Program-made: the position numbers and the translations under genes | Part shown: positions 1 through 59,583 of the stretch, piece by piece | Layout of the letters: every line of letters begins with the position of its first letter | Numbering within the stretch: position 1 is the stretch's first letter | Source of the DNA: a virus | Taxonomy: Duplodnaviria > Caudoviricetes | Virus record (IMG/VR): IMGVR_UViG_3300049432_000036 | Location: 1 to 59,583 of that record | Direction: 5' to 3' (one strand) | DNA length: 59,583 nt | Notes under the pieces: generated by a model | The model's database searches: none | Told to the model about the DNA's origin: nothing | The model's input: the letters and a program-made list of their open reading frames with translations, nothing else

Positions 1-127
1 AGACCGCCGCGCCGGTCCCCGCGTCCCTGGCTAGCTCCAACGAAGCGTTCTGAGAGGAACTGAAATGCGATTCATCACCAAGGCGAAGTACGCACTCATG
101 ATCGTGGCCGTAACGGCCAGCATGGGT
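1..127. repeat. 127-bp terminal direct repeat (copy 1), assembly circularisation overlap
   Basis: Identical to 59457-59583; cuts through genes; length equals a common assembler k-mer. Confidence 0.95.
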
Positions 128-3761: not shown

Positions 3762-5699
3762 GTGAAGGTGGTAGTGGAGAAGATCGGTAACCGCATCCAC
3801 CTGCGGTCGCCGTTCGAGTACAAGGACCGGGCCAAGGGACTGCCCGGCGCAAGGTGGTCGAAGAGCTCGAAGTCATGGACATATGCATGCGACCTTGAGA
3901 TCTGCCGAATGATGCGGGAAGAGTTCCGCGAGGAATTGGAGATTGGCCCTGAGTTGTTTGCATGGGCCCAAAATGAAGTCTCCCGCGAGCGCGCGGCTAC
4001 GACAATGCTCCGGGCAACAGGGGTCTCCTATGATGCGAAAAGTGTTGTTGTCCCTACGCGCGTAGAACGACTAACACCTAAAATCGCTTGGGGGTTCAGA
4101 GGTAAACCGTACCAAGTCCCGGGCGCGCGCTTCCTCGCGTACGCGAGGCAAGCACTGATTGCAGATGAACCGGGAATGGGTAAGACCATTCAAACTCTGG
4201 CCGCATTAGTGGAGAACCTTACCGAGGGCGGACGGGTGCTCGTGCTCGCTCCGAAGACCTCGGTGACCGCAGTTTGGCGGGAAGAGCTCCGCAAGTGGCT
4301 GGAGGGATTTGAGCACAGTGTCACGGTCCTCTCCGGCCTGACTCCGGCGAAAACCCAGGAACGGCTGGAGGAGTACGACGCCTTGCCGGACGACGGACGC
4401 TTGCATTTCCTCTTGGCCAACGCCGAGATTGTCCGCATCAAGTCCACCATGACCTGTACCCGCGTCGGCAGCGAGAAGGGCTGCGACGGAACGTACGAGT
4501 GGTGCGAGTTCGCCGACAAGCACAAAGGCGCGGTCGAGCCACGTCTGCCACAACTCTTCAAGCGGCAGTGGGACGCGATCGTGGCCGACGAAACCCACAA
4601 GTGGCTGATCAACACGAGGGGCAAGAAGGCGTCCCAGGTCGGCCGGGGATTCGTCGCGCTGAAGACCGTTGATGACGGCCTGCGGTACGCGCTGACCGGC
4701 ACACCCTACAAGGGCAAGAAGCACAACCTGTGGGGCACGCTCAACTGGCTCCGTCCGAAGGTCTACACCAGTAAGTGGAACTGGATCGAGCGGTATTTCG
4801 AGGTCCAGAAGACCGACTACAGCCGGGTGATCGGTGACATCATTCCGGAACGCGAGGAATCGCTCATGCGCAGCTTGGACGCGCTGTGTCTCCGGCGTAC
4901 CAAAGCTGAGATCAGGAAGATCAACCCCGACTGGATGCCGCCGGAGAAGATCTACCACCAGGTCAAGGTGCCGATGGATCCCAAGCAGGCCAAGGCGTAC
5001 AAGTCCATCACCCGGGACGCGGAGGTGAAGCTCAAGGGCGGAACCCTCACCGCCCTGGGCGTTCTCGCAGAGTTCACCCGGCTCAAGCAGTTCGCGTCCT
5101 GCTACGGCTACATCAACGACCGGGGCGAGTTCATGCCCAGCCTGCCATCTGGGAAGTTCGACTGGCTGTTGGAGTTCCTGGAGGAACGCGGCATCGAGAC
5201 CAAATCTGGGACGGCCAAGTATGGCGACCTGAGCGAGGAAGTTCACAAGGTGGTGATCGCCTCCCAGTTCACGAAGAACATCAATCTCTGGGCCGCTGAG
5301 TTGGTAGCGCGTGGCATCCCCTGCTACGTCCTGACCGGCCAGACCTCCGAAGGGAAACGGTCCGAGCTCGTCCGCCGGTTCCAGACCGACGACCGGCCGC
5401 GAGTCTTCCTCATCAACACGATGGCTGGTGGTGTATCGATCACCTTGGACGCAGCCGACGACGTTGTGATCATGGATGAGACGTGGATCCCGGATGACCA
5501 GTTGCAGGTTGAAGACCGGGCGCACCGCGCGTCGAACGTCAAGCACCAAGTTCATATCTGGTACGTACGTGCCGAAGACACGATCGAGGAGATGATTGCA
5601 GAGGCCAACTTTGCCAAGGCTGAAAGCAACTTTGTGATGCTCGACAAGAGGCGAGGTCTAGAGTTCGCCTCTGCGCAGTATGGGATTGACCCCAAGTAG
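3762..5699 (+). CDS. SNF2/SF2 DNA helicase
   Basis: ADEPGMGKT (motif I), VADETH (II), LTGTP (III), QVEDRAHR (VI). Confidence 0.92.
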   Translation: MKVVVEKIGNRIHLRSPFEYKDRAKGLPGARWSKSSKSWTYACDLEICRMMREEFREELEIGPELFAWAQNEVSRERAATTMLRATGVSYDAKSVVVPTRVERLTPKIAWGFRGKPYQVPGARFLAYARQALIADEPGMGKTIQTLAALVENLTEGGRVLVLAPKTSVTAVWREELRKWLEGFEHSVTVLSGLTPAKTQERLEEYDALPDDGRLHFLLANAEIVRIKSTMTCTRVGSEKGCDGTYEWCEFADKHKGAVEPRLPQLFKRQWDAIVADETHKWLINTRGKKASQVGRGFVALKTVDDGLRYALTGTPYKGKKHNLWGTLNWLRPKVYTSKWNWIERYFEVQKTDYSRVIGDIIPEREESLMRSLDALCLRRTKAEIRKINPDWMPPEKIYHQVKVPMDPKQAKAYKSITRDAEVKLKGGTLTALGVLAEFTRLKQFASCYGYINDRGEFMPSLPSGKFDWLLEFLEERGIETKSGTAKYGDLSEEVHKVVIASQFTKNINLWAAELVARGIPCYVLTGQTSEGKRSELVRRFQTDDRPRVFLINTMAGGVSITLDAADDVVIMDETWIPDDQLQVEDRAHRASNVKHQVHIWYVRAEDTIEEMIAEANFAKAESNFVMLDKRRGLEFASAQYGIDPK

Positions 5700-11584: not shown

Positions 11585-11642
11585 GTTCATCCCTACGCGC
11601 GTAACATAGCGCTCCTGACCCGATCCGTGATTGGGGGTGTTA

Positions 11643-30784: not shown

Positions 30785-31396
30785 ATGCCTGCCTCTTCTG
30801 GTGAAACTCCTCGCGGTCGAGGTCGGCCAAAGGGCAGCAAACCAAGTCCGGCGCAAGCTGCTGCATTGAAGGCTGGTGCTGCAAAGAGAGCCGAAACGTT
30901 GGCCAATCGTAGGAAGGCCAAAGAACAGAAAGACCCTGACGTTAAGTCACGACACCAGATGCTCTTGGACGGTGAGCTCAAGGTGTCGGAGCTTGATGAT
31001 GACGAGCTGTCGAAGTTCCGGGGTCGTGACATCGACGGCGAGTTCAAAGGCAGGATTGCGCCTTTGCCCGTCAAGCTGCATGCGTCGATTCGTCAACGCC
31101 TGTTGGGAAAGATGCAAGCAAACATCGAGGGCTTCCTTCCGCGTGCAACGGAGATCCTCAACGACATCGCGGAGTCGAGTGAGAACGACTCTGCAAGGGT
31201 CAAGGCCGTCGACCTGTTGTTGCAACGAGGCGCTGGTAAGGTGCCCGACGTGGTCCGGGTCGGCGCAGAAGACCCGTGGGATGTCATCCTTGGTGACGTG
31301 TTGCGAGATGGTGGATTGGAGTCCGAGGAGCTGAAACGCTTGACGGACGGCCTGACCGACCTCGCAGGGCGTGGCGGGCGCGACGACGGCTTCTGA
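30785..31396 (+). CDS. Probable terminase small subunit
   Basis: Directly upstream of TerL; basic N-terminus (RGRGRPKG), helical ARVKAVDLLL motif. Confidence 0.65.
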   Translation: MPASSGETPRGRGRPKGSKPSPAQAAALKAGAAKRAETLANRRKAKEQKDPDVKSRHQMLLDGELKVSELDDDELSKFRGRDIDGEFKGRIAPLPVKLHASIRQRLLGKMQANIEGFLPRATEILNDIAESSENDSARVKAVDLLLQRGAGKVPDVVRVGAEDPWDVILGDVLRDGGLESEELKRLTDGLTDLAGRGGRDDGF

Positions 31397-31487
31397 ACGT
31401 GGCAGGGTTGGGCCTACGGACGTGAAGGGATGCGTCCGTGGGTCCTTCCTTAGCTTATGGCTTCATAATCGCTTAGAAAGGAACCTC

Positions 31488-33014
31488 ATGGCTCCGAGAG
31501 TTGCCCTGGGAGAGGTGGACCCGGAGCGCTTGTACGCGGCTCTGAGGAAGACCCGGCCGCTTGCATACCCGATGTGGAAGAACGGTGGGTTCAAGCCGCA
31601 TCTCTCCCAAGCGGCCGTGTTGATGCATAGCGCTCGTAACAAGGTCGTATCGGGCGGACGACGGCTCGGCAAGTCGGAGATCGGGGCGGCCGAACTCGAT
31701 GCTGAAGTGGTCAAGACCAAGATCGTTCTCTCCAAACTGATCGAGATGGACAAGCGTCGTGAGTTCTGGATCATTGGGCCGGAGTACACGGATGCTGAGA
31801 AGGAGTTCCGCAAGCATTGGAACCTCCTCAAGAAGCTGGGGATTCCGTTCGACAAGCCTGGTTCCTACTATGATGCGCATAGTGGTGATATGCAGCTTTC
31901 GTTGATGAAAGGCCGGTACCTGGTACTTGGAAAGTCGGCCAAACATCCGGAGCGTCTGGTTGGTGAGGGATTGAACGGGGCCATTATGGCGGAAGCGGCG
32001 AAGATGAAGGAGAGCGTGTGGTCGAAGTACATCCGGCCGACGCTCGCTGACTTCAACGGATGGTCCATCTTTGCCAGTACACCAGAAGGCAAGAACTGGT
32101 TCTACGAGCTCTGGCAGGACGGCCAGGACCCTCTGAACGATGAATGGGCATCGTGGCGCATACCCTCGTGGATGAACCCGTATGTCTATCCTGGTGGAGC
32201 TACCGAAGCGAGCATCGCGACCCTTCGCGCAGCTCTCGAAGAACGGGCCAATGGCTTCAATTTCCAGGCGTTGGTGAAGCGTCTCCGGTTGAATCCCGAG
32301 ATCGCCTCGATGGTTCGTGACCTCGATGAGATCACCTTCAACCAGGAAGTCGCGGCGGACTTCTCGGAGTTCGTCGGCCGGGTGTTCAAGGACTTCGATG
32401 AGGAGGTGCATGTTGGGGACTTCAAGTACAACCCCGACTGGCCTTTGTATGCGGCGGTGGACTACGGATTCACGAACCCTTTCGTGTGGCTCCTGATCCA
32501 GATCGATCCGTTCGACAACGTGTATGTGATCAATGAGTTTTACGAAAAGGGCCTGACGATTGACGACGCAGCGCGTGAGTTGATCGCTCGTGGCTTGGCG
32601 CCGACGACCATGACCGGCTTCTATCCCGACCCCGCTTCGCCCGGCGACACCGCAGCCTTGGAGAAGCATCTCAAGATTGCAAGCTTTGGCCATACGGGTG
32701 GAGAAATCTCGACACGGCTCCGGTACATCCGCGAGGCGCTGAAGGTCCGCAACAAGCACCTGCCTTGGGGCGACCCGGAACGTAGGCCCAAGCTGATGTT
32801 CGATCGCAAGTGTGAGAACTCGATCCGGGAGTTCAATGACTACCGCTACCCGAAGGGTGAGGAGAAGCGGGACAAGAACAATCAAGAGAACCCACTCAAG
32901 AAGGACGACCACACTCCAGAAGCACTCGGGAGGTTCTACCATGGCTACTACGGAAACCCCGACCAATCCGCCGGAGTCACCACAGTCCGACGCGGGCGCT
33001 TCGCTCGGCGTTAG
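31488..33014 (+). CDS. terL: Terminase large subunit
   Basis: GGRRLGKS Walker A, MAEAA Walker B variant, ASTPEGKNWFY, VDYG and DDH nuclease motifs. Confidence 0.95.
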   Translation: MAPRVALGEVDPERLYAALRKTRPLAYPMWKNGGFKPHLSQAAVLMHSARNKVVSGGRRLGKSEIGAAELDAEVVKTKIVLSKLIEMDKRREFWIIGPEYTDAEKEFRKHWNLLKKLGIPFDKPGSYYDAHSGDMQLSLMKGRYLVLGKSAKHPERLVGEGLNGAIMAEAAKMKESVWSKYIRPTLADFNGWSIFASTPEGKNWFYELWQDGQDPLNDEWASWRIPSWMNPYVYPGGATEASIATLRAALEERANGFNFQALVKRLRLNPEIASMVRDLDEITFNQEVAADFSEFVGRVFKDFDEEVHVGDFKYNPDWPLYAAVDYGFTNPFVWLLIQIDPFDNVYVINEFYEKGLTIDDAARELIARGLAPTTMTGFYPDPASPGDTAALEKHLKIASFGHTGGEISTRLRYIREALKVRNKHLPWGDPERRPKLMFDRKCENSIREFNDYRYPKGEEKRDKNNQENPLKKDDHTPEALGRFYHGYYGNPDQSAGVTTVRRGRFARR

Positions 33015-44573: not shown

Positions 44574-44799
44574 TCCTTGGACTGCGTTCTGCGTGGACAA
44601 CGCCGTGGCTCACTTCGGTTCGTCGCTGGAAGCGGAGCTGGACTCCGTAGAGGGCAAGACATCCGCAGAGGTCAACAAGAAAAGGGCGAGAATCATGGAG
44701 AAGTGGCTGGACATCCCGCGCCGCTTCAAGTCGCCCATGGCGAGCCGTATGAAGTCTGACGTAGTGCACGACATCACTGTCCAAGGAGGCATTGACTGA
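44484..44799 (+). CDS. Tail assembly chaperone frameshift extension (GT), +1 frame
   Basis: Overlapping +1-frame ORF opens after TAG 44476-78, next to TTT_CGT at 44484-89. Confidence 0.65.
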
Positions 44800-47432
44800 T
44801 GTCCTATAACCTGGGTACGGCCGAAGGCGTCATTACCACTTCCTACAACGGGAAGGGAGTGTCTGAGGCCAACAAGGATGTTGACAAGCTCACCAAGGGT
44901 CACAAGGACGCTGCGGAGGCAGTCAACAAGGTAGGCCGTGCTTCAGGTATCGCTGGTGTCGCAGTCGCTGCGGGCATCGGTGTAGCAGTCAACGCTGCTG
45001 CGAACTTCGAGCAGCGCATGTCGGCTGTAAAGGCCGTGTCCGGCGCGAGCGCAGCCGAGATGGATCAGCTGAGCAAGAAGGCTCTTCAGCTCGGCAAGGA
45101 CACTTCCTTCAGTGCGACCGACGCGGCATCAGCGATCGAGGAATTGGTTAAGGCTGGTGTATCCGTACCCGATGTGATGAACGGTGCTGCTGACGCCACC
45201 GTCGCGCTTGCCGCAGCTGGTGAGGTCTCCCTCCCCGAAGCAGCTGCGATCGCATCGAACGCGATGAACCAGTTCCAGCTCTCGGCACAGGACATGCCGA
45301 AGGTCGCCGACCTCATCGCTGGTGCCGCTAACGCTTCTGCTATTGACGTTAAGGAGTTCGGCTACTCCCTGTCGCAGGCCGGAGCCGTTGCCAACCTCGT
45401 GGGCGCGAGCTTCGATGACACCGCGACGGCGATTGCCCTTATGGGCAACGCGGGCATCAAGGGTTCGGATGCCGGTACGTCGCTGAAGACGATGCTGTCC
45501 AATCTTCAGCCCCAGACCAAGAAGCAGACCTCCCTTATGGAGAAGCTGGGAATTGTCACGAAGGAGCAGGGCAACCGCTTCTTCGACGCCCAGGGCAACC
45601 TCAAGTCGTTCGCCGAGATCGCCGAAATCCTCCAGACTTCCTTGAAGGGCGCAACAAAGGCCCAGCAGCAGCAGGCGCTAGAGACCATCTTCGGTTCGGA
45701 TGCGATCCGTGCTGCGGCGATCTTCACCCAGGCCGGAGCCAAGGGCTTCGACAAGATGTCCGCCTCCATGAACAAGGTGAAGGCCGCCGACGTAGCGAAG
45801 ACCCGGCTGGACAACTTCAAGGGCTCCCTGGAGCAGATGAAGGGGTCGCTGGAGACGACCGGTATCGTCATCGGCCAGCTGTTTCTGCCCTATCTGCGAT
45901 CGCTCGTGGATGGGATCGCCAAGGTAGTCAATGCATTTCTGAGTCTTTCGCCCGGAGTCCAAAAGGGCATCGTCATCTTCGTCGCCATCGTCGGCGCGAT
46001 CCTGCTGTTCGTCGCAGCTACGGTGAAGATCGTTAGAGCCGTGCAAACAGTCATCGAAGTCGCGAAGGTTCTTCGTCTAGTGATGGCCTCCACTTGGGTC
46101 GCGACTTTGGGGCCAATAGCCCTTGTTATTGCTGCCATCGCGCTACTGGTACTAGGCATTAGGTATGCGTGGAAGCATTCGGAGACCTTCCGCACTGTCG
46201 TGCTCGCAGTATGGGGCGCGATCAAGACGGCGGTATCTGCCACTCTTGCCTGGTTTACTGGGACTTTGTGGCCCGGCATCCAGGCTGTCTGGAACGGGAT
46301 TGTGTCCGGCCTTCAGGCGGTCGGTAACTTCTTCGTGACAATCTGGAACGCGATCAAGACCGGAGTGTCAGCCGCGATCGGATTCGTGTCGAGCGTCATC
46401 ACGACCGGGATGAACGTCATCAACGCGATCATCAGCGCCGTACTCGGTGTGGTGATGGGAGTCTGGAACGCGTTCTGGGGAGTGTTCGGCGGCGTGATCA
46501 AGGCCGCCTGGAACCTCATTGTACAGGTGGTGAAACTGGGCATCGCGATGGTTCAGTTCACGATCGCCTCGGTGTTGAAGGTAATCGAGATCGTGGTGAG
46601 GACAGTTTGGGGAGCGATCTCGAAGTTCCTCACTACGATCTGGAACGCGATCAAGAGCGTGGCGTCGGCGGTCTGGAACGCGATCAAGGCTTACTTCGTT
46701 GGTGTATTCAACACCATCAAGAGCATCACCCTGACCGTGTGGAACGCTGTCAGGAATGCGGTCATCGCTGCGATCAACGCCGTCAAGGGTCCGGTCATGG
46801 CGGCGGTCAACGCCGTGAAGTCGGCGGTCTCGACGGCTTGGAACGCTGTGAAGTCCGTCAGCGTCTCGATCTGGAACGGCTTGGTAAGTGTGGTGTCCGG
46901 GCCGATCAACCGAGTCCTGTCGGTTGTCAGTAGCGTTGTGGGGAAGATCCGGGGTGTGTTCGCCGGAGCCGGTAAGTGGTTGTACAACGCCGGACGAGAC
47001 ATCATCCAGGGACTCCTCAACGGTATCGAATCCCTCATCAATGCGGTCACCGGCAAGCTCAAGTGGCTGACGGATCACATCCCGAAGGTCAAGGGTCCGG
47101 AGGCCAAGGACAAGCGCCTCTTGCGCCCGTCCGGCCGATGGATCATGGAGGGCTTCGTGGACGAGTTGGACAAGGGCGTCAACAACGCTCTTGCCTTGCT
47201 GTCGAACGCGACAGGGATGCTTCCCGACACGATTACTGCGCGATCGGTGACGGACGTGATGCCCGCGACCGGCCTAGCCCGCGCCGCAGCTGTCGTGTCG
47301 ACCGGCGGGCTCGCGACCCCGGCCGGACGAGTTACCAACCTCAACCTTGAGGTATACAACCCGGTCGGCGTGCCTACGTCCGAGGAACTCAGCACGCAGG
47401 CCACCCGCATGGCGACGTTGGGAGTTCTGTAA
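44799..47432 (+). CDS. Tape measure protein
   Basis: 877 aa Ala/Gly-rich; TP901-like core; WNAIK/WNAVK repeats. Confidence 0.95.
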   Translation: MSYNLGTAEGVITTSYNGKGVSEANKDVDKLTKGHKDAAEAVNKVGRASGIAGVAVAAGIGVAVNAAANFEQRMSAVKAVSGASAAEMDQLSKKALQLGKDTSFSATDAASAIEELVKAGVSVPDVMNGAADATVALAAAGEVSLPEAAAIASNAMNQFQLSAQDMPKVADLIAGAANASAIDVKEFGYSLSQAGAVANLVGASFDDTATAIALMGNAGIKGSDAGTSLKTMLSNLQPQTKKQTSLMEKLGIVTKEQGNRFFDAQGNLKSFAEIAEILQTSLKGATKAQQQQALETIFGSDAIRAAAIFTQAGAKGFDKMSASMNKVKAADVAKTRLDNFKGSLEQMKGSLETTGIVIGQLFLPYLRSLVDGIAKVVNAFLSLSPGVQKGIVIFVAIVGAILLFVAATVKIVRAVQTVIEVAKVLRLVMASTWVATLGPIALVIAAIALLVLGIRYAWKHSETFRTVVLAVWGAIKTAVSATLAWFTGTLWPGIQAVWNGIVSGLQAVGNFFVTIWNAIKTGVSAAIGFVSSVITTGMNVINAIISAVLGVVMGVWNAFWGVFGGVIKAAWNLIVQVVKLGIAMVQFTIASVLKVIEIVVRTVWGAISKFLTTIWNAIKSVASAVWNAIKAYFVGVFNTIKSITLTVWNAVRNAVIAAINAVKGPVMAAVNAVKSAVSTAWNAVKSVSVSIWNGLVSVVSGPINRVLSVVSSVVGKIRGVFAGAGKWLYNAGRDIIQGLLNGIESLINAVTGKLKWLTDHIPKVKGPEAKDKRLLRPSGRWIMEGFVDELDKGVNNALALLSNATGMLPDTITARSVTDVMPATGLARAAAVVSTGGLATPAGRVTNLNLEVYNPVGVPTSEELSTQATRMATLGVL

Positions 47433-55365: not shown

Positions 55366-55542
55366 ATGGAAAGTGAAGAGGAAGTGGTCGGTATCAACTC
55401 CGACTACCGCATGGAGGAACTGTCCGGCGATGAGGTCGCAGCCCTGGCCTTCGAGGCAGAGCACCGTCACCTCAAGTCGTGTCAGTCTGACGACGAGTCC
55501 AATGGTGAAAGCGACCTGAGCCTGACGGAGGAGGGCGAATGA
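55366..55542 (+). CDS. Small acidic protein (58 aa, not in ORF track)
   Basis: AAGGAG RBS; ATGA overlap with endolysin. Confidence 0.5.
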   Translation: MESEEEVVGINSDYRMEELSGDEVAALAFEAEHRHLKSCQSDDESNGESDLSLTEEGE

Positions 55543-56429
55543 CCGCGTATGCGTTGAGCGCCTTTGGCCCCAATCCCAACGCCGGTAAGTCGCCGAACGG
55601 CGCACAAGGTCGCGGTTGGGGTCCGGGTTGGCCGGATTGCCAGTCGAACAAGATGGTGAAGGTCACGAACGGCGACCACTCCGTCAACGTCCGGCGCGAG
55701 ATCGCCGAACTGGTCCTCACGCTGTTCCGGATTACGGCGCTGCGCGGATATGACATCAACCCGAAGGGCCAGCCGAACCAGACCTGGGGCTTCGCCTGCA
55801 GGGCTATAGCGAACACGCGTCGGGCATCGAACCACTCGTGGGGACTCGCGATCGACATCAACGCGCCGTCGAACCCCTACTCCATCACCTTCCACACGAA
55901 CATCCCGCCGCAGGTCGTGAACGACTGGGAGGTGTGTGGCTGGTACTGGGGCGGCCGGTACACCGTCAAGAAGGACACGATGCACTTCGAGTACATCGGC
56001 AATCCGACTTCCGTTGCCGGGCACTTGGCCAAGGCGAAGAGCATCCTCAACCAACTGCTCAACGCGTTGAAGCCTCCGGCGTCGAAGAACACCGTGAGCC
56101 TCAACTCCGTCGCATATGCGGCCAATGGTGGGTATTTACACTCCGGCCAGAAGGCTGCGGAGGACGACGCTCGTACGTGCCTGGAGTGGCTACACAACGT
56201 CCGGCACTACGCATCCGATCGAGACCTGCGGGTGTGGGAAGAGCGGCTGCGTATCGCCAAGGGCACGGACCGGCCGACCGATTGGAAGGCGGCGGGCGCG
56301 CAGTACGCCGGGATCATCAAGCGGTTCCAGCGCGTCCAAGGTCTCGCGGCTGACGGAGTCGTCGGCCCGCTCACGCGGTCGAAGCTTGCGGCCGCTATGA
56401 ACGCTGACAACTACCGCGTCAGCCTCTGA
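55539..56429 (+). CDS. Endolysin: M15 peptidase + peptidoglycan-binding domain
   Basis: SNHSWGLAIDIN, DTMHFE; C-terminal FQRVQGLAADGVVGPLT. Confidence 0.92.
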   Translation: MTAYALSAFGPNPNAGKSPNGAQGRGWGPGWPDCQSNKMVKVTNGDHSVNVRREIAELVLTLFRITALRGYDINPKGQPNQTWGFACRAIANTRRASNHSWGLAIDINAPSNPYSITFHTNIPPQVVNDWEVCGWYWGGRYTVKKDTMHFEYIGNPTSVAGHLAKAKSILNQLLNALKPPASKNTVSLNSVAYAANGGYLHSGQKAAEDDARTCLEWLHNVRHYASDRDLRVWEERLRIAKGTDRPTDWKAAGAQYAGIIKRFQRVQGLAADGVVGPLTRSKLAAAMNADNYRVSL

Positions 56430-56902: not shown

Positions 56903-57160
56903 ATGATGGCAAACGTCATCGACCGCATCCGGCTGACGCTGGACCCGCAGTCGGCCGCAAACGCCTTGTACGATGTGCTTTTGCAGTGGAAGAGGGCCGA
57001 CGACGAGTTGAGCGACATCCACACGCGTCGTAACCAGCGCCGCCGGGAGCTGTTCGCCCGCAGAGAAGCGTACGAGCGCGTTCTCGCAGCATTCATGGGG
57101 GTTACTCCCCAGAGCGTCCGACCGTTGCTGCGAGATCACTTCACGGAGCCGACCTCGTGA
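56903..57160 (+). CDS. Hypothetical protein
   Basis: AGGAGG RBS. Confidence 0.65.
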   Translation: MMANVIDRIRLTLDPQSAANALYDVLLQWKRADDELSDIHTRRNQRRRELFARREAYERVLAAFMGVTPQSVRPLLRDHFTEPTS

Positions 57161-57588
57161 CCGCCGAAGAAGACCTCAAGCTGCTGCTACAACTCGGCAC
57201 CGTCGACAACATCACGACAACGGCCCTGACCGACGCCGACCACATCGCCGGAGGCATCCCGAGATGGGCGGAGATCGTGGTGGATGTCGAGCGCGAAGGG
57301 AAGCTGCTGCGGCACTACTTCACGCGCCACGACGGCGAAGCGCTCGTGATGTCGGTACTCCGAGGGATGCACCCCCAGGCCGGTCGGCCGGTCGTCGGCT
57401 TCCTCTGGGAGAGGCTGGACGACTGCATGGTTGGCATCCTGGACGGCGAGATCGAGCCGGATGAGAAGCTTCGGTTCAAGGGCGAAGCGCTGGGACTCGC
57501 GTTCGCTATCGCGACCATCCGGCGACCACACGACCCGGACGTGGACGCTGTGCGCAAAGAGGCACGAGAGCGGTACGACGCGCGCTGA
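57157..57588 (+). CDS. Hypothetical protein
   Basis: GTGA overlap; 143 aa. Confidence 0.7.
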   Translation: MTAEEDLKLLLQLGTVDNITTTALTDADHIAGGIPRWAEIVVDVEREGKLLRHYFTRHDGEALVMSVLRGMHPQAGRPVVGFLWERLDDCMVGILDGEIEPDEKLRFKGEALGLAFAIATIRRPHDPDVDAVRKEARERYDAR

Positions 57589-57734
57589 CGCGTCAGTTAC
57601 TTGCAGTTACTGGCTACGGAGACTCACACATAAGCTGCATAACTCTCCGTAGTCGAAGGTAACGATCGTATTACGAGATCGCCCCGAGGGTGGTTTCGGC
57701 TTTGCGCTCCCTACGCGCGTAGGGTTAAGTCACT

Positions 57735-58198
57735 GTCACGGCCCCCGCTGTGGGGCTGCCTCGCTGAGAGAGCGGGCGCGCAACCTACGAGAGATACGGA
57801 CCGGCTAGTTGAGGTTCGGTAGCTCGCAGGGGATGGATCGAGAGATGGTGTCGGTCCGTAGCCCATACTCATCGGCCGGGAATCCGGGAAACTGGAATCG
57901 GCGGAGCCTGCCCTTAGGGAGAGGCTGAGCGGAGCGGAGAGGCACTAGCCCTCGTTGAGGCTCTAATCGGCACGCTACAAGGGAGAGACCGAAGTTGGTC
58001 TAAAGGACGGGTTGTAACACGAACCCCTTACCTGCCATCCACATCTACGGAACCGACTCTCATGGAGTTCGGCGCGGCCTAGGAAGCTACGAAATGACTT
58101 GCAGCCTGGCGGTTGTATCGCCCTCGAAGTCATGGAGAACTGAATAACGTCAACGAAACAAAGCAAGTTGGACGAATCGAAGCGGAGTTGATTCGTCC
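57735..58198 (+). ncRNA. Candidate large structured non-coding RNA (ends approximate)
   Basis: No credible ORF; about ten helices including two 11-bp stems, a GAAA tetraloop and long-range complementarity. Confidence 0.6.
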
Positions 58199-58272
58199 GG
58201 CCCCGTCGTACAAGCAGTAGCGCCAGGGGATGACCTTGGAGATGTCGGTATCGAATCCGACCGGGGCACGCA
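58199..58272 (+). tRNA. Degenerate tRNA-like element (pseudo-tRNA)
   Basis: Acceptor GCCCCG/CGGGGC; 5-7-5 arm CCAGG-GGATGAC-CTTGG; T-arm GTCGG-TATCGAAT-CCGAC; lacks U33, D-loop GG and CCA. Confidence 0.6.
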
Positions 58273-58297
58273 GATACCAACCGATAGGAGCTGCAAA

Positions 58298-58738
58298 ATG
58301 AAGATCAAGTTCATTGCCGAGTACACCGATGGCGTCTACACCTTCCTGGCGCTTGAGACCGGAGACCACCCGACTGGCTACTGTTCGGAGCAGGGTTGCA
58401 TGAACACCCCGAACAGCACCCTGTATGACGTTGAGGGCGACCCGATGTTGTTCTGCGCATACCACATCCAACGTCTCGACCAGGATGACGAGATGGGATG
58501 GAAGCGCGGCCGGACGATTTACCCGGTTGATGCCGATGGAGTCGAGGAGTGCTCGACCCCGGCGCAGATCGTCGCCGAATGGATCATCAACAACCCCGAG
58601 ATGTTCGTCGAGGTTGTGCCGATCCCGTTCAAGGAGATCGTTGCGGAAGACGAGAAGCGCGAGGGCATGCGCGACTGTAAGGGACGCGGGCCGGATCACC
58701 CGCAGTTCGACCCGGAGCAAGCCTACAACTTCAGCTAG
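58298..58738 (+). CDS. Hypothetical early protein with Cys/His motif
   Basis: AGGAG RBS; CSEQGC...FCAYH. Confidence 0.75.
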   Translation: MKIKFIAEYTDGVYTFLALETGDHPTGYCSEQGCMNTPNSTLYDVEGDPMLFCAYHIQRLDQDDEMGWKRGRTIYPVDADGVEECSTPAQIVAEWIINNPEMFVEVVPIPFKEIVAEDEKREGMRDCKGRGPDHPQFDPEQAYNFS

Positions 58739-58793
58739 GTCGAAACGGGGCCATTGGCCCCGTCGTCGCGTAGATGCGCGGCCTGACGAGACC
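58738..58793 (+). ncRNA. Type II hammerhead ribozyme
   Basis: GGTC-GAAA-[CGGGGCC att GGCCCCG]-TC^-[GTCGCGT agat GCGCGGC]-CTGACGA-GACC: complete catalytic core with three closed stems. Confidence 0.9.
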
Positions 58794-58816
58794 GTACCAA
58801 ACAGGAAGGCATTACC

Positions 58817-59509
58817 ATGGCAAACACGACTGCGCGGACTCGCAAGGCCGTCGCCGCAACGAAGACCGCTACTGCGAACATCACCGCCGCACGGAAGGCC
58901 GTAGCGAAGAAGACTGCGGCAGCGCCGGTCGGCGACAAGCCGAAGAAGGAGCAGACCTTCGAGGAGCGCGACTGGACATACTTGGACGACAAGCCACCCA
59001 GCGAGCAGCACGAGATCCTGGCCAAGGAGATCAACCGCCGGACGAACCTGGTGGATGACGACGGCGAGGACACGCCGATCAGCCCGAAGCAGGTCCAGGC
59101 CGTTCTCGCGATGTTCCCGCACTTCCAGCGGTCGGCGACGAACAAGGCCCGCGCCGGTTACCACCCGCTTGCCGCAGAGATCGTGGAGAAGCGTTCGGAG
59201 CACATGACCCTGGCGCACAAGGAAGCACGGGAGATCATGGACGGACTGGCCCAGGAAGTGGCCAAGAAGGCTCCGGCCAAGAAGACCGCAACCCCGAAGG
59301 CCAACCCGGCCGGAGCGGCCAAGGCTGTGGCCAAGCGGGCCGCGAGCCCGAAGCTCAACACCGAGACCCGGCCGTCAACTCCGGCCAATCCCGCGCCGAC
59401 CGCCCCGCTTCCCCACAACGGCAAGGCTCCGGCTCGCAAGGCGCGGGTCACCAAGAAGACCGCCGCGCCGGTCCCCGCGTCCCTGGCTAGCTCCAACGAA
59501 GCGTTCTGA
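58817..59509 (+). CDS. Ala/Lys-rich histone-like early protein
   Basis: AKK/PAKK-rich arms around a folded core; AGGAAGG RBS. Confidence 0.8.
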   Translation: MANTTARTRKAVAATKTATANITAARKAVAKKTAAAPVGDKPKKEQTFEERDWTYLDDKPPSEQHEILAKEINRRTNLVDDDGEDTPISPKQVQAVLAMFPHFQRSATNKARAGYHPLAAEIVEKRSEHMTLAHKEAREIMDGLAQEVAKKAPAKKTATPKANPAGAAKAVAKRAASPKLNTETRPSTPANPAPTAPLPHNGKAPARKARVTKKTAAPVPASLASSNEAF

Positions 59510-59583
59510 GAGGAACTGAAATGCGATTCATCACCAAGGCGAAGTACGCACTCATGATCGTGGCCGTAACGGCCAGCATGGGT
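59457..59583. repeat. 127-bp terminal direct repeat (copy 2)
   Basis: Identical to 1-127. Confidence 0.95.

What the first reader, a model, noticed from the sequence alone, without database searches (positions are those of the whole stretch)
57735..58198. ~460-nt ornate structured RNA candidate (GOLLD/ROOL-like context, possibly new class)
Seen helices: TACGGACCGGC 57795-805/GTCGGTCCGTA 57850-60; TCCGG-GAAA-CTGGA 57883-96; AGCCT..AGGCT 57905-26; AGACC/GGTCT 57986-58001; GGGTT/AACCC 58009-26; CCGA..TCGG 58053-72; ATGACTT/AAGTCAT 58094-133 enclosing GGCGGT/ATCGCC; GGACGAATCGA/TTGATTCGTCC 58170-98. Segments inside the first large loop (GCAGG 57826-30, GGATGG 57831-36, AGATG 57843-47) are complementary to CCTGC, CCATCC and CATCT at 58031-46 in the same order, which suggests long-range pseudoknots. 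A further 11-bp hairpin (57612-54) lies upstream. The family assignment is not established.
Basis: partly seen in the sequence, partly recalled or inferred. Interest (0 to 1): 0.8.

Follow-up and report, generated by a model that had tools for sequence, protein, structure and literature searches.

The report
New structured phage RNA with tRNA-like end
A gene-free stretch at the start of the early genes of an uncultured soil phage most likely encodes a roughly 530-base folded RNA that ends in a tRNA-shaped module, matches no catalogued RNA family and has no known function.

Summary
The finding sits in a 709-nt ORF-free gap (57589-58297). This gap lies between the lysis genes and the early/replication genes of a complete 59.6-kb virus record. 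The 464-nt stretch as a whole folds no better than shuffled controls (z -0.31). Three full relatives from IMG/VR and four partial Logan contigs nevertheless show clear compensatory change. On sequence-only alignments, 90-95% of cells are paired, and 12 of 29, 22 of 47 and 12 of 29 pairs change on both sides, against 1-5 in slid controls. Not supported: the three pseudoknots, AGCCT/AGGCT and the 11-bp helix 57795-57860. The plus strand is favoured. There is no Rfam, tRNA or tmRNA match. My reading is a new class of phage leader/noncoding RNA, about 57739-58270. The tRNA-like end may recruit RNase P; this step is inferred, not shown. Only four full sequences and no expression data were available. 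The scan had already noted this stretch (e1-6284079), the tRNA-like element and a neighbouring hammerhead.

The parts
57596..57698 (.). Upstream block conserved by sequence (GTTAC repeats, invariant TCACACATA, GTAACGAT..ATTACG). Probably regulatory DNA rather than part of the folded RNA.
Evidence: Invariant columns in the alignment. 66-73% identity to the three relatives, the highest of any part of the gap.
57702..57730 (+). Candidate promoter with an operator in the spacer: TTGCGC (57702-07), then a 17-nt spacer made of T plus the perfect palindrome CCCTACGCGCGTAGGG (57709-24), then TTAAGT (57725-30). This would put the transcript start near 57737. Inferred only.
   Evidence: The palindrome is invariant in 4 of 4 sequences. 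Its first 14 letters recur at 4051 and 11590 in the window. The promoter scan found 0 sigma-70-like sites in 57000-59000, so the assignment is weak.
57739..57758 (+). 5' hairpin H1: 7-bp stem with the conserved loop CGCUG(U/A).
   Evidence: One search gives four different 7-bp stems around the same loop: CGGCCCC/GGGGCTG, GGGACGG/CCGTCCT, CGGCCAC/GTGGCCG and TGCGGCC/GGCCGTA. It is also present in the single-sequence MFE.
57759..57880 (+). 5' domain closed by a long-range helix (57759-76 pairing with 57862-80).
   Evidence: helices 2 and 3: 14 pairs, 7 changed on both sides, 97.7% and 91.7% of cells paired. The same closing helix appears in the window's own MFE. The interior is not resolved.
57883..57896 (+). 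GNRA-capped hairpin UCCGG-GAAA-CUGGA (GCAA in two relatives).
   Evidence: 5 pairs, 100% paired, one G-U to G-C change.
57900..57908 (+). Invariant mini-hairpin GGC-GRA-GCC within the most conserved sequence block.
   Evidence: 3 pairs that never vary. These say nothing for or against pairing.
57911..57983 (+). Domain II, four stacked helices: 57911-14/57980-83; 57917-21/57975-79; 57924-29/57966-71; 57931-35/57960-64.
   Evidence: helices 3-5: 18 pairs, 10 changed on both sides, 81-96% paired. Wobble-to-Watson-Crick changes occur in Logan contigs: 57926 T>C in 4 of 4 runs and 57964 T>C in 3 of 4. The centroid fold of the window alone gives the same domain.
57986..58001 (+).
   Evidence: helix 6: 5 pairs, 3 changed on both sides, 90% paired.
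58009..58026 (+). Hairpin GGGUU/AACCC with a loop containing GUAAC. Partly supported.
   Evidence: 3 pairs, all changed on both sides, 83% paired. Only 50% paired on the columns.
58053..58072 (+). Hairpin CCGACUC/GAGU-UCGG.
   Evidence: 58058 T>C occurs together with 58066 A>G in 2 of the 3 runs that cover it (X2, X9). It is not alignable in the three distant relatives (75% paired on the outer 4 pairs).
58094..58133 (+). Domain III: AUGACUU/AAGUCAU enclosing GGCGGU/AUCGCC (58108-13/58117-22).
   Evidence: z -2.55 in the window. The inner hairpin is paired in 3 of 4 sequences with 2 pairs changed on both sides. The outer helix is 60.7% paired on fixed columns. Overall it does not exceed the shuffle control.
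58170..58198 (+). Terminal hairpin: 10-11 bp with an invariant loop AGCGGAG and an invariant closing G-U.
   Evidence: 10 pairs, 5 changed on both sides, 100% paired. 58171 G>A occurs with 58197 C>T in X3.
58200..58270 (+). tRNA-like module. A 6-bp acceptor-like stem (58200-05/58262-67), an anticodon-like arm (58223-39), a T-arm-like hairpin (58244-61), then the invariant tail ACG (58268-70).
   Evidence: The acceptor-like stem differs in all four sequences yet always pairs. A model built from the three relatives alone hits 58167-58272 at 44.5 bits, E 7.6e-6, the only match below E 1 in the window. The sequence-only model reaches only the hairpin at 18.1 bits. z is -2.84 here and -5.19, -3.47 and -2.65 in the relatives.
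58285..58300 (+). Ribosome-binding site TAGGAG and the ATG of the first early gene (58298-58738, 146 aa, no family match).
   Evidence: No Pfam or PHROG match.

Best explanation
The gap encodes a + strand structured RNA of about 530 nt (about 57739-58270) at the head of the early operon. It is found in a small clade of uncultured soil phages.

Shown here:
- The RNA is a chain of covarying elements: a 5' hairpin, a domain closed by a long-range helix, a GNRA hairpin, a four-helix domain, several hairpins, a terminal hairpin with an invariant loop, and a Y-shaped tRNA-like module.
- The + strand is the folded strand.
- It belongs to no Rfam family.

Inferred:
- It is transcribed from a promoter overlapping the invariant palindrome, starting near 57737, as the leader of the early genes.
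- The tRNA-like module is the working 3' end. Host RNase P cuts at 58199/58200. This would release a stable folded RNA capped by the terminal hairpin and free the early mRNA.
- A hammerhead-like element 470 nt further on (58738-58800) may cut the mRNA again.

What the released RNA does in the cell is not known.
For: Covariation on sequence-only MAFFT alignments of 4 sequences:
- Core 57856-58205: 47 pairs, 94.7% of 188 cells paired, 22 pairs changed on both sides against 3-5 when the partner is slid 1-3 columns, 0 of 500 shuffles as high.
- 5' domain: 29 pairs, 90.4% of 115 cells, 12 pairs against 1-3.
- Hairpin plus tRNA-like unit: 29 pairs, 93.0% of 114 cells, 12 pairs against 1-3. The terminal hairpin's 10 pairs are counted in both.

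Independent contigs agree: 58058/58066 change together in X2 and X9, 58171/58197 change together in X3, and wobble pairs become Watson-Crick at 57926 and 57964.

Leave-one-out test: a model built without the window finds 58167-58272 at 44.5 bits. The sequence-only model scores 18.1 bits and covers the hairpin only.

Each of the four hairpin plus tRNA-like units folds alone into the same shape, with z from -2.65 to -5.19.

Structure is kept at only 55-60% nucleotide identity, lower than the neighbouring gene at 61-66%.

Strand: the consensus fold is -54.15 kcal/mol on + (covariation term -6.62) and -41.67 on - (covariation term -1.25). The loops are GNRA and T-loop-like on +.

No conserved ORF is present.

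RNase P idea:
- All four units have G at +1 paired to C, then A-C-G after the stem.
- In tRNA an acceptor/T-arm stack is what RNase P reads (my recall; the review passages I read did not state it).
- A passage of the review PMC11143913 lists phage M3 RNA, phage C4 antisense RNA, tmRNA, viral tRNA-like structures and mRNAs among non-tRNA substrates of RNase P.
Against: - The 464-nt stretch folds no better than shuffles (z -0.31). Two of four sub-domains also do not.
- Only four full sequences and four partial contigs were available, and they are related to each other. The tool warns that related sequences can beat every shuffle.
- The structures were predicted by RNAalifold from the same four sequences. 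That inflates the gap to the slid controls.
- Several stretches (57777-57861 and 58027-58169) are not resolved or are not alignable.
- L011 lacks the GGCGGU hairpin.
- There is no evidence of a transcript, of its ends or of cleavage.
- The promoter is weak by consensus, and the scan found none.
- The tRNA-like module is not seen by ARAGORN. No tRNA match came up in Rfam at E<=10, even in a 111-nt search.
- Its acceptor-like plus T stack is 11 bp, not 12, and it carries ACG, not CCA.
Confidence: 0.6

Rival explanations
1. It is a purely cis-acting leader that is never released. The folded 5' UTR would control the early operon, for example by making RNA polymerase resistant to terminators (as the put RNAs of phage HK022 or nut/boxB of lambda do; both recalled), by sensing a ligand, or by setting mRNA stability and translation.
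For: Position directly upstream of the first early gene, with no terminator-like site between. All genes of the 59.6-kb genome lie on one strand, so long read-through is needed. L002 and L003 carry boxB-like hairpins with the loop GAAGA.
Against: At about 530 nt it is several times larger than known antitermination or riboswitch leaders (recalled). The boxB-like hairpins are missing in the window and in L011. The last stem (58262-67) does not overlap the ribosome-binding site at 58285-90. No riboswitch or leader family matched in Rfam.
Confidence: 0.25
2. The conserved features act as DNA: promoters and operators, a replication origin, a packaging or end site, or a folded single-stranded DNA signal.
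For: The gap lies at the late/early junction, where such sites are expected. The block 57596-57735 is conserved by sequence, with repeats and a perfect 16-bp palindrome that recurs in part at two other places. Compensatory changes would also keep a DNA hairpin.
Against: The strand asymmetry (-54.15 against -41.67 kcal/mol), the invariant G-U pairs, the GNRA tetraloops and a T-loop-like hairpin all point to RNA. The large terminase gene is 26 kb away, at 31371-33014. No iterons or direct repeats longer than chance were seen in 57739-58270. This rival probably does hold for the upstream block.
Confidence: 0.08
3. The 3' module is a decayed phage tRNA gene or a tRNA-derived attachment site, and the rest is unconstrained GC-rich spacer that forms hairpins by chance.
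For: The T-arm GCCCG-UUCRAGU-CGGGC is tRNA-like. GC-rich DNA folds well by chance, which is what z -0.31 shows.
Against: Both strands of the acceptor-like stem are present and change together in all four phages. A decaying gene or a one-sided att core would not keep that. The three relatives share a non-tRNA architecture: no D-arm and a 6-nt loop CGGUAA. I scanned only part of the ORFs and saw no integrase among them. Upstream helices covary far above the slid controls.
Confidence: 0.05

Closest known systems
GOLLD and ROOL RNAs (large ornate RNAs of phages and prophages)
   Same: Several hundred nucleotides, many helices, carried by phage genomes, often next to tRNAs (recalled), and function unknown. 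[quoted passage not shown]
   Different: No match of any Rfam family came up here. This RNA occurs in high-GC soil phages and sits as the leader of the early operon. It looks like a chain of hairpins and two closed domains, not one globally closed fold. Nothing is known about multimerisation.
Phage RNAs matured by host RNase P (C4 antisense RNA of P1/P7, M3 RNA of phi80)
   Same: These are phage-coded non-tRNA RNAs cut out of longer transcripts by RNase P (passage read in PMC11143913). Here an acceptor/T-arm-like stack follows the folded RNA directly.
   Different: Cleavage is not tested here. There is no sequence likeness. The stack is 11 bp and the tail is ACG, not CCA. The upstream RNA is far larger.
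tRNA-like 3' end signals of long noncoding RNAs (MALAT1/mascRNA; recalled, no call)
   Same: A tRNA-shaped module at the end of a long structured RNA defines the 3' end of that RNA through RNase P.
   Different: That case is eukaryotic and nuclear. It is an analogy of mechanism only.
tmRNA
   Same: A tRNA-like part (acceptor and T arm, no normal anticodon function) is joined to a large structured RNA. Some phages of actinobacteria carry tmRNA genes (recalled).
   Different: ARAGORN found no tmRNA in the window or in the relatives, and no tmRNA match came up in Rfam. Both strands of the stem are local instead of coming from the 5' and 3' ends. I did not look for a tag reading frame.
Catalogue of 10,006 candidate structured RNAs in viruses (PMC10690425)
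   Same: It comes from the same kind of source: intergenic regions of IMG/VR, scored by covariation. The authors report tRNA-like candidates and candidates upstream of genes (passages read).
   Different: With about four IMG/VR copies it may have fallen below their thresholds.

Membership tests
GOLLD / ROOL / OLE and every other Rfam 15 family | Match to the family's covariance model at or above its gathering score | tested here: not met
   0 matches over the whole window. At E<=10 over 57400-58500 the only hit was snoTBR5, 13.9 bits, E 4. Nothing fell inside the gaps of L011, L002 or L003 at E<=5.
tRNA | Cloverleaf recognised by ARAGORN or the Rfam tRNA model | tested here: not met
   0 genes in the window and in 3 relatives. 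No tRNA match came up at E<=10 in 58150-58850 or in a 111-nt search of L002.
tRNA | Acceptor stem stacked on a 5-bp T stem with a 7-nt UUCRANY-type loop, followed directly by the 3' acceptor strand and a discriminator base | tested here: met
   UUCAAGU or UUCGAGU loops on GCCCG/CGGGC in 3 of 4 sequences. The window has GUCGG/CCGAC with an 8-nt loop. There is a 6-bp acceptor-like stem in 4 of 4, followed by A. The loop consensus is recalled.
tRNA | D-arm, 7-nt anticodon loop, 3' CCA or a site for it | tested here: not met
   The three relatives have no D-arm and a 6-nt loop CGGUAA. The window has a 5-7-nt loop and 17 nt in place of a D-arm. The tail is ACG in 4 of 4.
tmRNA | ARAGORN/Rfam match; tRNA-like domain formed by the two ends; tag-peptide reading frame | tested here: not met
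   ARAGORN found no tmRNA and Rfam gave no match. The stem strands lie 57 nt apart, not at the two ends of the RNA. The tag frame was not examined.
RNase P substrate | Cleavage by RNase P at the 5' side of the acceptor-like stem | not testable with these tools
   Only the shape and the G(+1)-C pair plus A-C tail are seen.
Conserved structured RNA (generic) | Base pairs kept through compensatory changes beyond controls, on one strand | tested here: met
   (12 of 29, 12 of 29 and 22 of 47 pairs changed on both sides, against 1-5 in slid controls). for the strand. Caveats: four related sequences, and the structure was derived from them.
Hammerhead ribozyme type II (the neighbour at 58738-58800, not the finding itself) | Rfam model at gathering score; CUGANGA and GAAA cores; three stems | tested here: inconclusive
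   30.7 bits against a gathering score of 37, E 3.3e-4 in a 701-nt scan, with both cores present. L002 keeps it, with paired changes in two stems. It was not reported in L002 at E<=5 in the 18-kb scan.

The most novel reading that the evidence does not exclude
This is a new class of large phage RNA that carries its own processing cassette. A tRNA mimic recruits host RNase P to release a roughly 460-nt ornate RNA in the first minutes of infection. The released RNA, or the freed tRNA-like piece, then acts in trans on the host. It might act as a decoy for tRNA-directed defence nucleases or as an RNA-only assembly of the ROOL/GOLLD kind.
Probability: 0.15. Interest if true: 0.85.

Novelty: new variant of a known kind. 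Interest (0 to 1): 0.6.

Why it matters
Few large structured RNAs without a known job are known in bacteria and phages (recalled), and those studied have taught something new about RNA architecture. This one is backed by covariation and has a clear genomic role position: the first thing transcribed from the early operon. It also has a built-in tRNA-like end that gives a direct, cheap test, namely RNase P cleavage in vitro. If the processing model holds, it would be a bacterial-virus counterpart of tRNA-like 3' end formation of long noncoding RNAs. It would also give a handle on how soil phages of high-GC hosts start infection. If only the structure holds, it is still a new entry for RNA family databases.

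Tried and rejected
Family searches
- Rfam at gathering score on the window gave nothing.
- Rfam in E-value mode on 57400-58500, on 58150-58850, on three relatives and on L002 4120-4230 gave only noise inside the gap.
- ARAGORN found nothing.

Searches for more relatives
- blastn of the gap against 50,697 phage records: no match.
- tblastn of the 143-aa neighbour found only a weak hit in Tsukamurella phage TIN2 (40% identity over 46% of the query). That locus has no long gap.
- The 146-aa downstream protein has no relative in IMG/VR.
- Pattern scans gave chance hits only. L009 is unrelated high-GC DNA. L013 lies inside a coding frame of a Streptomyces genome. None of the 18 further IMG/VR stretches fits model R1 at E<=1.
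- The protein-pattern scan of genome contigs found no relative among 600 stretches.
- Model R1 was not found in the 151 genomes sampled from the phylum of G004. That shows little, because the sample holds no known positive.

Other negatives
- No RNA holder was listed among the 13 sequencing runs. The runs laid are contigs and say nothing about expression or ends.
- The long-range helix GCCGG(57875-79)/CUGGC(58106-10) proposed was dropped. It competes with the better supported 57759-76/57862-80 helix and shows almost no covariation.
- The first hairpin register (columns 22-43) was replaced by the 7-bp stems.
- Pseudoknots: X3 has seven deletion events between 57828 and 57850 and no listed change at 58031-46. 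However, 59 substitution rows and 18 indel rows of that table were not shown.
- Pfam and PHROGs gave no function for the flanking small proteins.
- Earlier-findings look-ups by relatives and by sequence gave nothing beyond this genome.
- Paper searches turned up no description of this element. The supplements of PMC10690425, which may list it, were closed.
Full report
CONTEXT
The window is a complete 59,583-bp IMG/VR virus record. Its 'direct terminal repeat' is exactly 127 nt. That length looks like an assembler overlap (my recall of a common k-mer size), so it says nothing about the physical ends.

All long ORFs lie on the + strand. The gene order is as follows.
- Replication and recombination genes in the first 25 kb: DUF2786, DUF6011, SNF2 helicase, PD-(D/E)XK nuclease, AAA_24, an MCM-like protein and DnaE.
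- Large terminase at 31371-33014 and tape-measure protein at 44799-47432.
- An M15 peptidase endolysin with a peptidoglycan-binding domain at 55539-56429.
- Three small ORFs, the last of 143 aa at 57157-57588.

A 709-nt gap (57589-58297) follows, and then a 146-aa ORF that begins the early block. The finding therefore sits at the late/early junction of a genome read in one direction.

THE OBSERVATION
As a single sequence the 464-nt stretch is unremarkable. Its MFE is -173 kcal/mol against -170.95 +/- 6.58 for dinucleotide shuffles, giving z -0.31. The minus strand gives z -0.63.

RELATIVES
- blastn against cultured phages found nothing.
- The 143-aa neighbour led to L002 and L003 in IMG/VR. 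It has 33 protein relatives, all from metagenomes.
- A profile search added L011.
- Pattern scans of IMG/VR, of JGI metagenomes and of one genome per species gave only duplicates of these three or chance hits.
- Laying Logan contigs of four soil runs on the gap gave partial information on four more lineages. X3 covers 57690-58297, X9 covers 57689-58161, X2 covers 57852-58149 and X10 covers 57856-58005.

In all six lineages where both could be seen (window, L011, L002, L003, X3, X9), the element directly follows the 143-aa gene.

COVARIATION
RNAalifold on plain MAFFT alignments of the four full sequences predicted helices with many compensatory changes. I counted them with controls.

Region | Pairs | Cells paired | Pairs changed on both sides | Slid controls | Shuffles as high | Call
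Core 57856-58205 | 47 | 94.7% of 188 | 22 | 3-5 | 0 of 500 | 62
57725-57880 | 29 | 90.4% of 115 | 12 | 1-3 | 0 of 500 | 59
58165-58300 | 29 | 93.0% of 114 | 12 | 1-3 | 0 of 500 | 60

The terminal hairpin is counted in both.

These figures need three caveats.
- There are only four sequences, and they are related.
- The structures were derived from the same sequences.
- The tool itself warns that shuffles are not probabilities.

Three lines of evidence do not share these weaknesses.
1. The Logan contigs were not used to derive the structure, and they show paired changes where predicted. 58058 T>C occurs with 58066 A>G in X2 and X9. 58171 G>A occurs with 58197 C>T in X3. Wobble pairs become Watson-Crick at 57926 (4 of 4 runs) and 57964 (3 of 4 runs).
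2. A covariance model built from L011, L002 and L003 alone finds the window's 58167-58272 at 44.5 bits, E 7.6e-6. It is the only hit below E 1 in 59.6 kb on both strands. The same alignment modelled without structure scores 18.1 bits and reaches only the hairpin.
3. Each of the four hairpin plus tRNA-like units, folded alone, gives the same shape with z -2.84, -5.19, -3.47 and -2.65.

Pairing is kept at 55-60% nucleotide identity. That is lower than in the adjacent protein gene, at 61-66%.

ANATOMY (+ strand)
1. H1, 57739-58: a 7-bp stem with four different sequences around the conserved loop CGCUG(U/A).
2. A long-range helix, 57759-76 with 57862-80: 14 pairs, 7 changed on both sides. It closes a variable insert, 57777-57861.
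3. GNRA hairpin, 57883-96.
4. An invariant GGC-GRA-GCC mini-hairpin, 57900-08.
5. Domain II, 57911-83, with four stacked helices: 18 pairs, 10 changed on both sides. The centroid fold of the window alone gives the same domain.
6. Hairpin 57986-58001.
7. Hairpin 58009-26 (partial support).
8. Hairpin 58053-72 (support from close relatives only).
9. Domain III, 58094-133. z is -2.55. The inner hairpin is kept in 3 of 4 sequences. The outer helix needs register shifts in L002 and L003 and is missing in L011. It is not above controls.
10. An A-rich linker.
11. Terminal hairpin 58170-98, with an invariant loop AGCGGAG and a closing G-U.
12. One or two bases later, a Y-shaped tRNA-like module, 58200-58267.

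The module's 6-bp acceptor-like stem reads GCCCCG/CGGGGC, GCAUCC/GGAUGC, GGCCCU/AGGGCC and GCAACU/AGUUGC in the four phages. The 5-bp T-like stem carries UUCAAGU or UUCGAGU in the relatives and an 8-nt loop in the window. It abuts the 3' strand of the acceptor-like stem, as in tRNA. The stem always starts with G paired to C and is followed by A-C-G. The relatives have no D-arm, and they have a long arm with the loop CGGUAA. The window has a 5-bp arm and 17 unpaired or weakly paired bases instead.

- AGCCT/AGGCT (57905-26) never varies informatively. Its 3' arm and interior are used by covarying domain II. In L011 the two arms are not complementary.
- The 11-bp helix 57795-805/57850-60 lies in the variable insert, has 56-71% of cells paired, and is not in the MFE of the 142-nt domain. 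I call it unresolved.
- The three pseudoknot pairings have 33-67% of cells paired. The segments are deleted or changed in X3, while no change is listed in their partners (the table was truncated). Three segments paired 'in the same order' cannot form one continuous antiparallel helix.
- The upstream 11-bp hairpin (62.8% paired) sits in a block that is conserved by sequence.

STRAND AND NATURE
- The plus-strand consensus fold is -54.15 kcal/mol with a covariation term of -6.62. The minus-strand fold is -41.67 kcal/mol with -1.25, and A-C mismatches appear where + has G-U.
- GNRA tetraloops and a T-loop-like hairpin are RNA motifs (established knowledge, recalled).
- No ORF is shared among the four gaps.
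I conclude that the covarying part is RNA read from the + strand.

UPSTREAM BLOCK
57596-57735 behaves differently. It has high sequence identity (66-73%), GTTAC repeats one helical turn apart and an invariant TCACACATA. It also has an invariant perfect palindrome, CCCTACGCGCGTAGGG, whose first 14 letters recur at 4051 and 11590 in this genome and once more in L011's record.

TTGCGC, a 17-nt spacer made of the palindrome, and then TTAAGT (AAGAGT or AAGGAT in the relatives) could be a promoter with an operator in its spacer. That would start the RNA at about 57737, two bases before H1. This is inference: the hexamers are weak, and the consensus scan found nothing.

MECHANISM
I commit to the following, with the inferred steps marked.
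- The RNA is made as the leader of the early operon (inferred from position and from the absence of a terminator).
- The tRNA-like module is an RNase P site (inferred from shape, from the G+1-C pair and from the A-C tail).
- Cleavage at 58199/58200 would leave a folded RNA of about 460 nt whose 3' end is protected by the conserved terminal hairpin. It would also leave an mRNA that starts with the tRNA-like piece.

A review passage lists phage M3 RNA, phage C4 antisense RNA, tmRNA, viral tRNA-like structures and mRNAs among non-tRNA substrates of RNase P (PMC11143913, passages read). A hammerhead-like element between the first and second early genes fits a theme of RNA processing but is a separate finding. 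It scores 30.7 bits against a gathering score of 37 and is kept with paired changes in L002.

I put about 0.8 on 'real conserved structured RNA of no known family'. I put about 0.3 on the RNase P step. The confidence of 0.6 given for the combined statement reflects both. The main rival is a leader that acts only in cis.

COMPARISON AND NOVELTY
- No Rfam 15 family matches, and ARAGORN sees no tRNA or tmRNA.
- The element works like, but is not a member of, the large ornate phage RNAs (GOLLD, ROOL) and the RNase P-matured phage RNAs.
- A 2023 catalogue of 10,006 candidate structured RNAs from IMG/VR v3 (PMC10690425, passages read) may or may not contain it. Its supplements were closed.
- My four paper searches found no description of it.
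I rate it a new variant of a known kind: a new class of large phage RNA joined to a tRNA-like end.

LIMITS
- Only four full sequences were available.
- There is no statistical test of covariation that accounts for phylogeny.
- There are no transcript data.
- The host is unknown.
- About 40% of the length (57777-57861 and 58027-58169) has no settled structure.

Noticed in passing
window 58738-58800 (+); L002 about 4712-4775: Hammerhead type II-like element between the first and second early genes. It scores 30.7 bits against a gathering score of 37, E 3.3e-4 in a 701-nt scan, and has the CUGACGA and CGAAAC cores. L002 keeps it with paired changes in two stems. L003 lacks both the 146-aa gene and the element.
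   Followed up: partly
window 4051-4064, 11590-11603, 57708-57721; one extra copy in the record behind L011: The 14-mer TCCCTACGCGCGTA occurs three times on the + strand. One copy is inside the SNF2 helicase ORF and one is in the 450-nt gap before the MCM-like gene. That is far more than chance for a 60-kb genome. It may be a binding site or a promoter element.
   Followed up: partly
window 57577-57594 and 57739-57758; L011 3638-3657 and 4162-4177; L002 3637-3656; L003 3631-3650: Hairpins with the same 6-nt loop CGCUG(A/U) on unrelated stems recur. One of them spans the stop codon of the 143-aa ORF. This may be a protein-binding hairpin motif.
   Followed up: no
L003 3896-3911 and 4120-4135; L011 4089-4106; L002 4168-4183: The loop CGGUAA appears on the long arm of the tRNA-like module in three relatives, and a second time inside the core of L003. 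The window's hairpin 58009-26 carries GUAAC in its loop. The upstream DNA block carries the complementary GTTAC repeats.
   Followed up: no
L002 4038-4052; L003 3998-4012: Hairpins of the form 5-bp stem, loop GAAGA, like lambda boxB (recalled). They are absent from the window and from L011.
   Followed up: no
window 1-127 and 59457-59583: The terminal repeat is exactly 127 nt. That is typical of an assembler's overlap on a circular or concatemeric template (recalled). The physical ends of the genome are therefore unknown.
   Followed up: no
window 57157-57588: The 143-aa protein has 33 relatives at 52-85% identity, all from metagenomes. It has no Pfam family, one PHROG of unknown function, and a weak match in Tsukamurella phage TIN2. 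It precedes the RNA in all six lineages that could be checked.
   Followed up: partly
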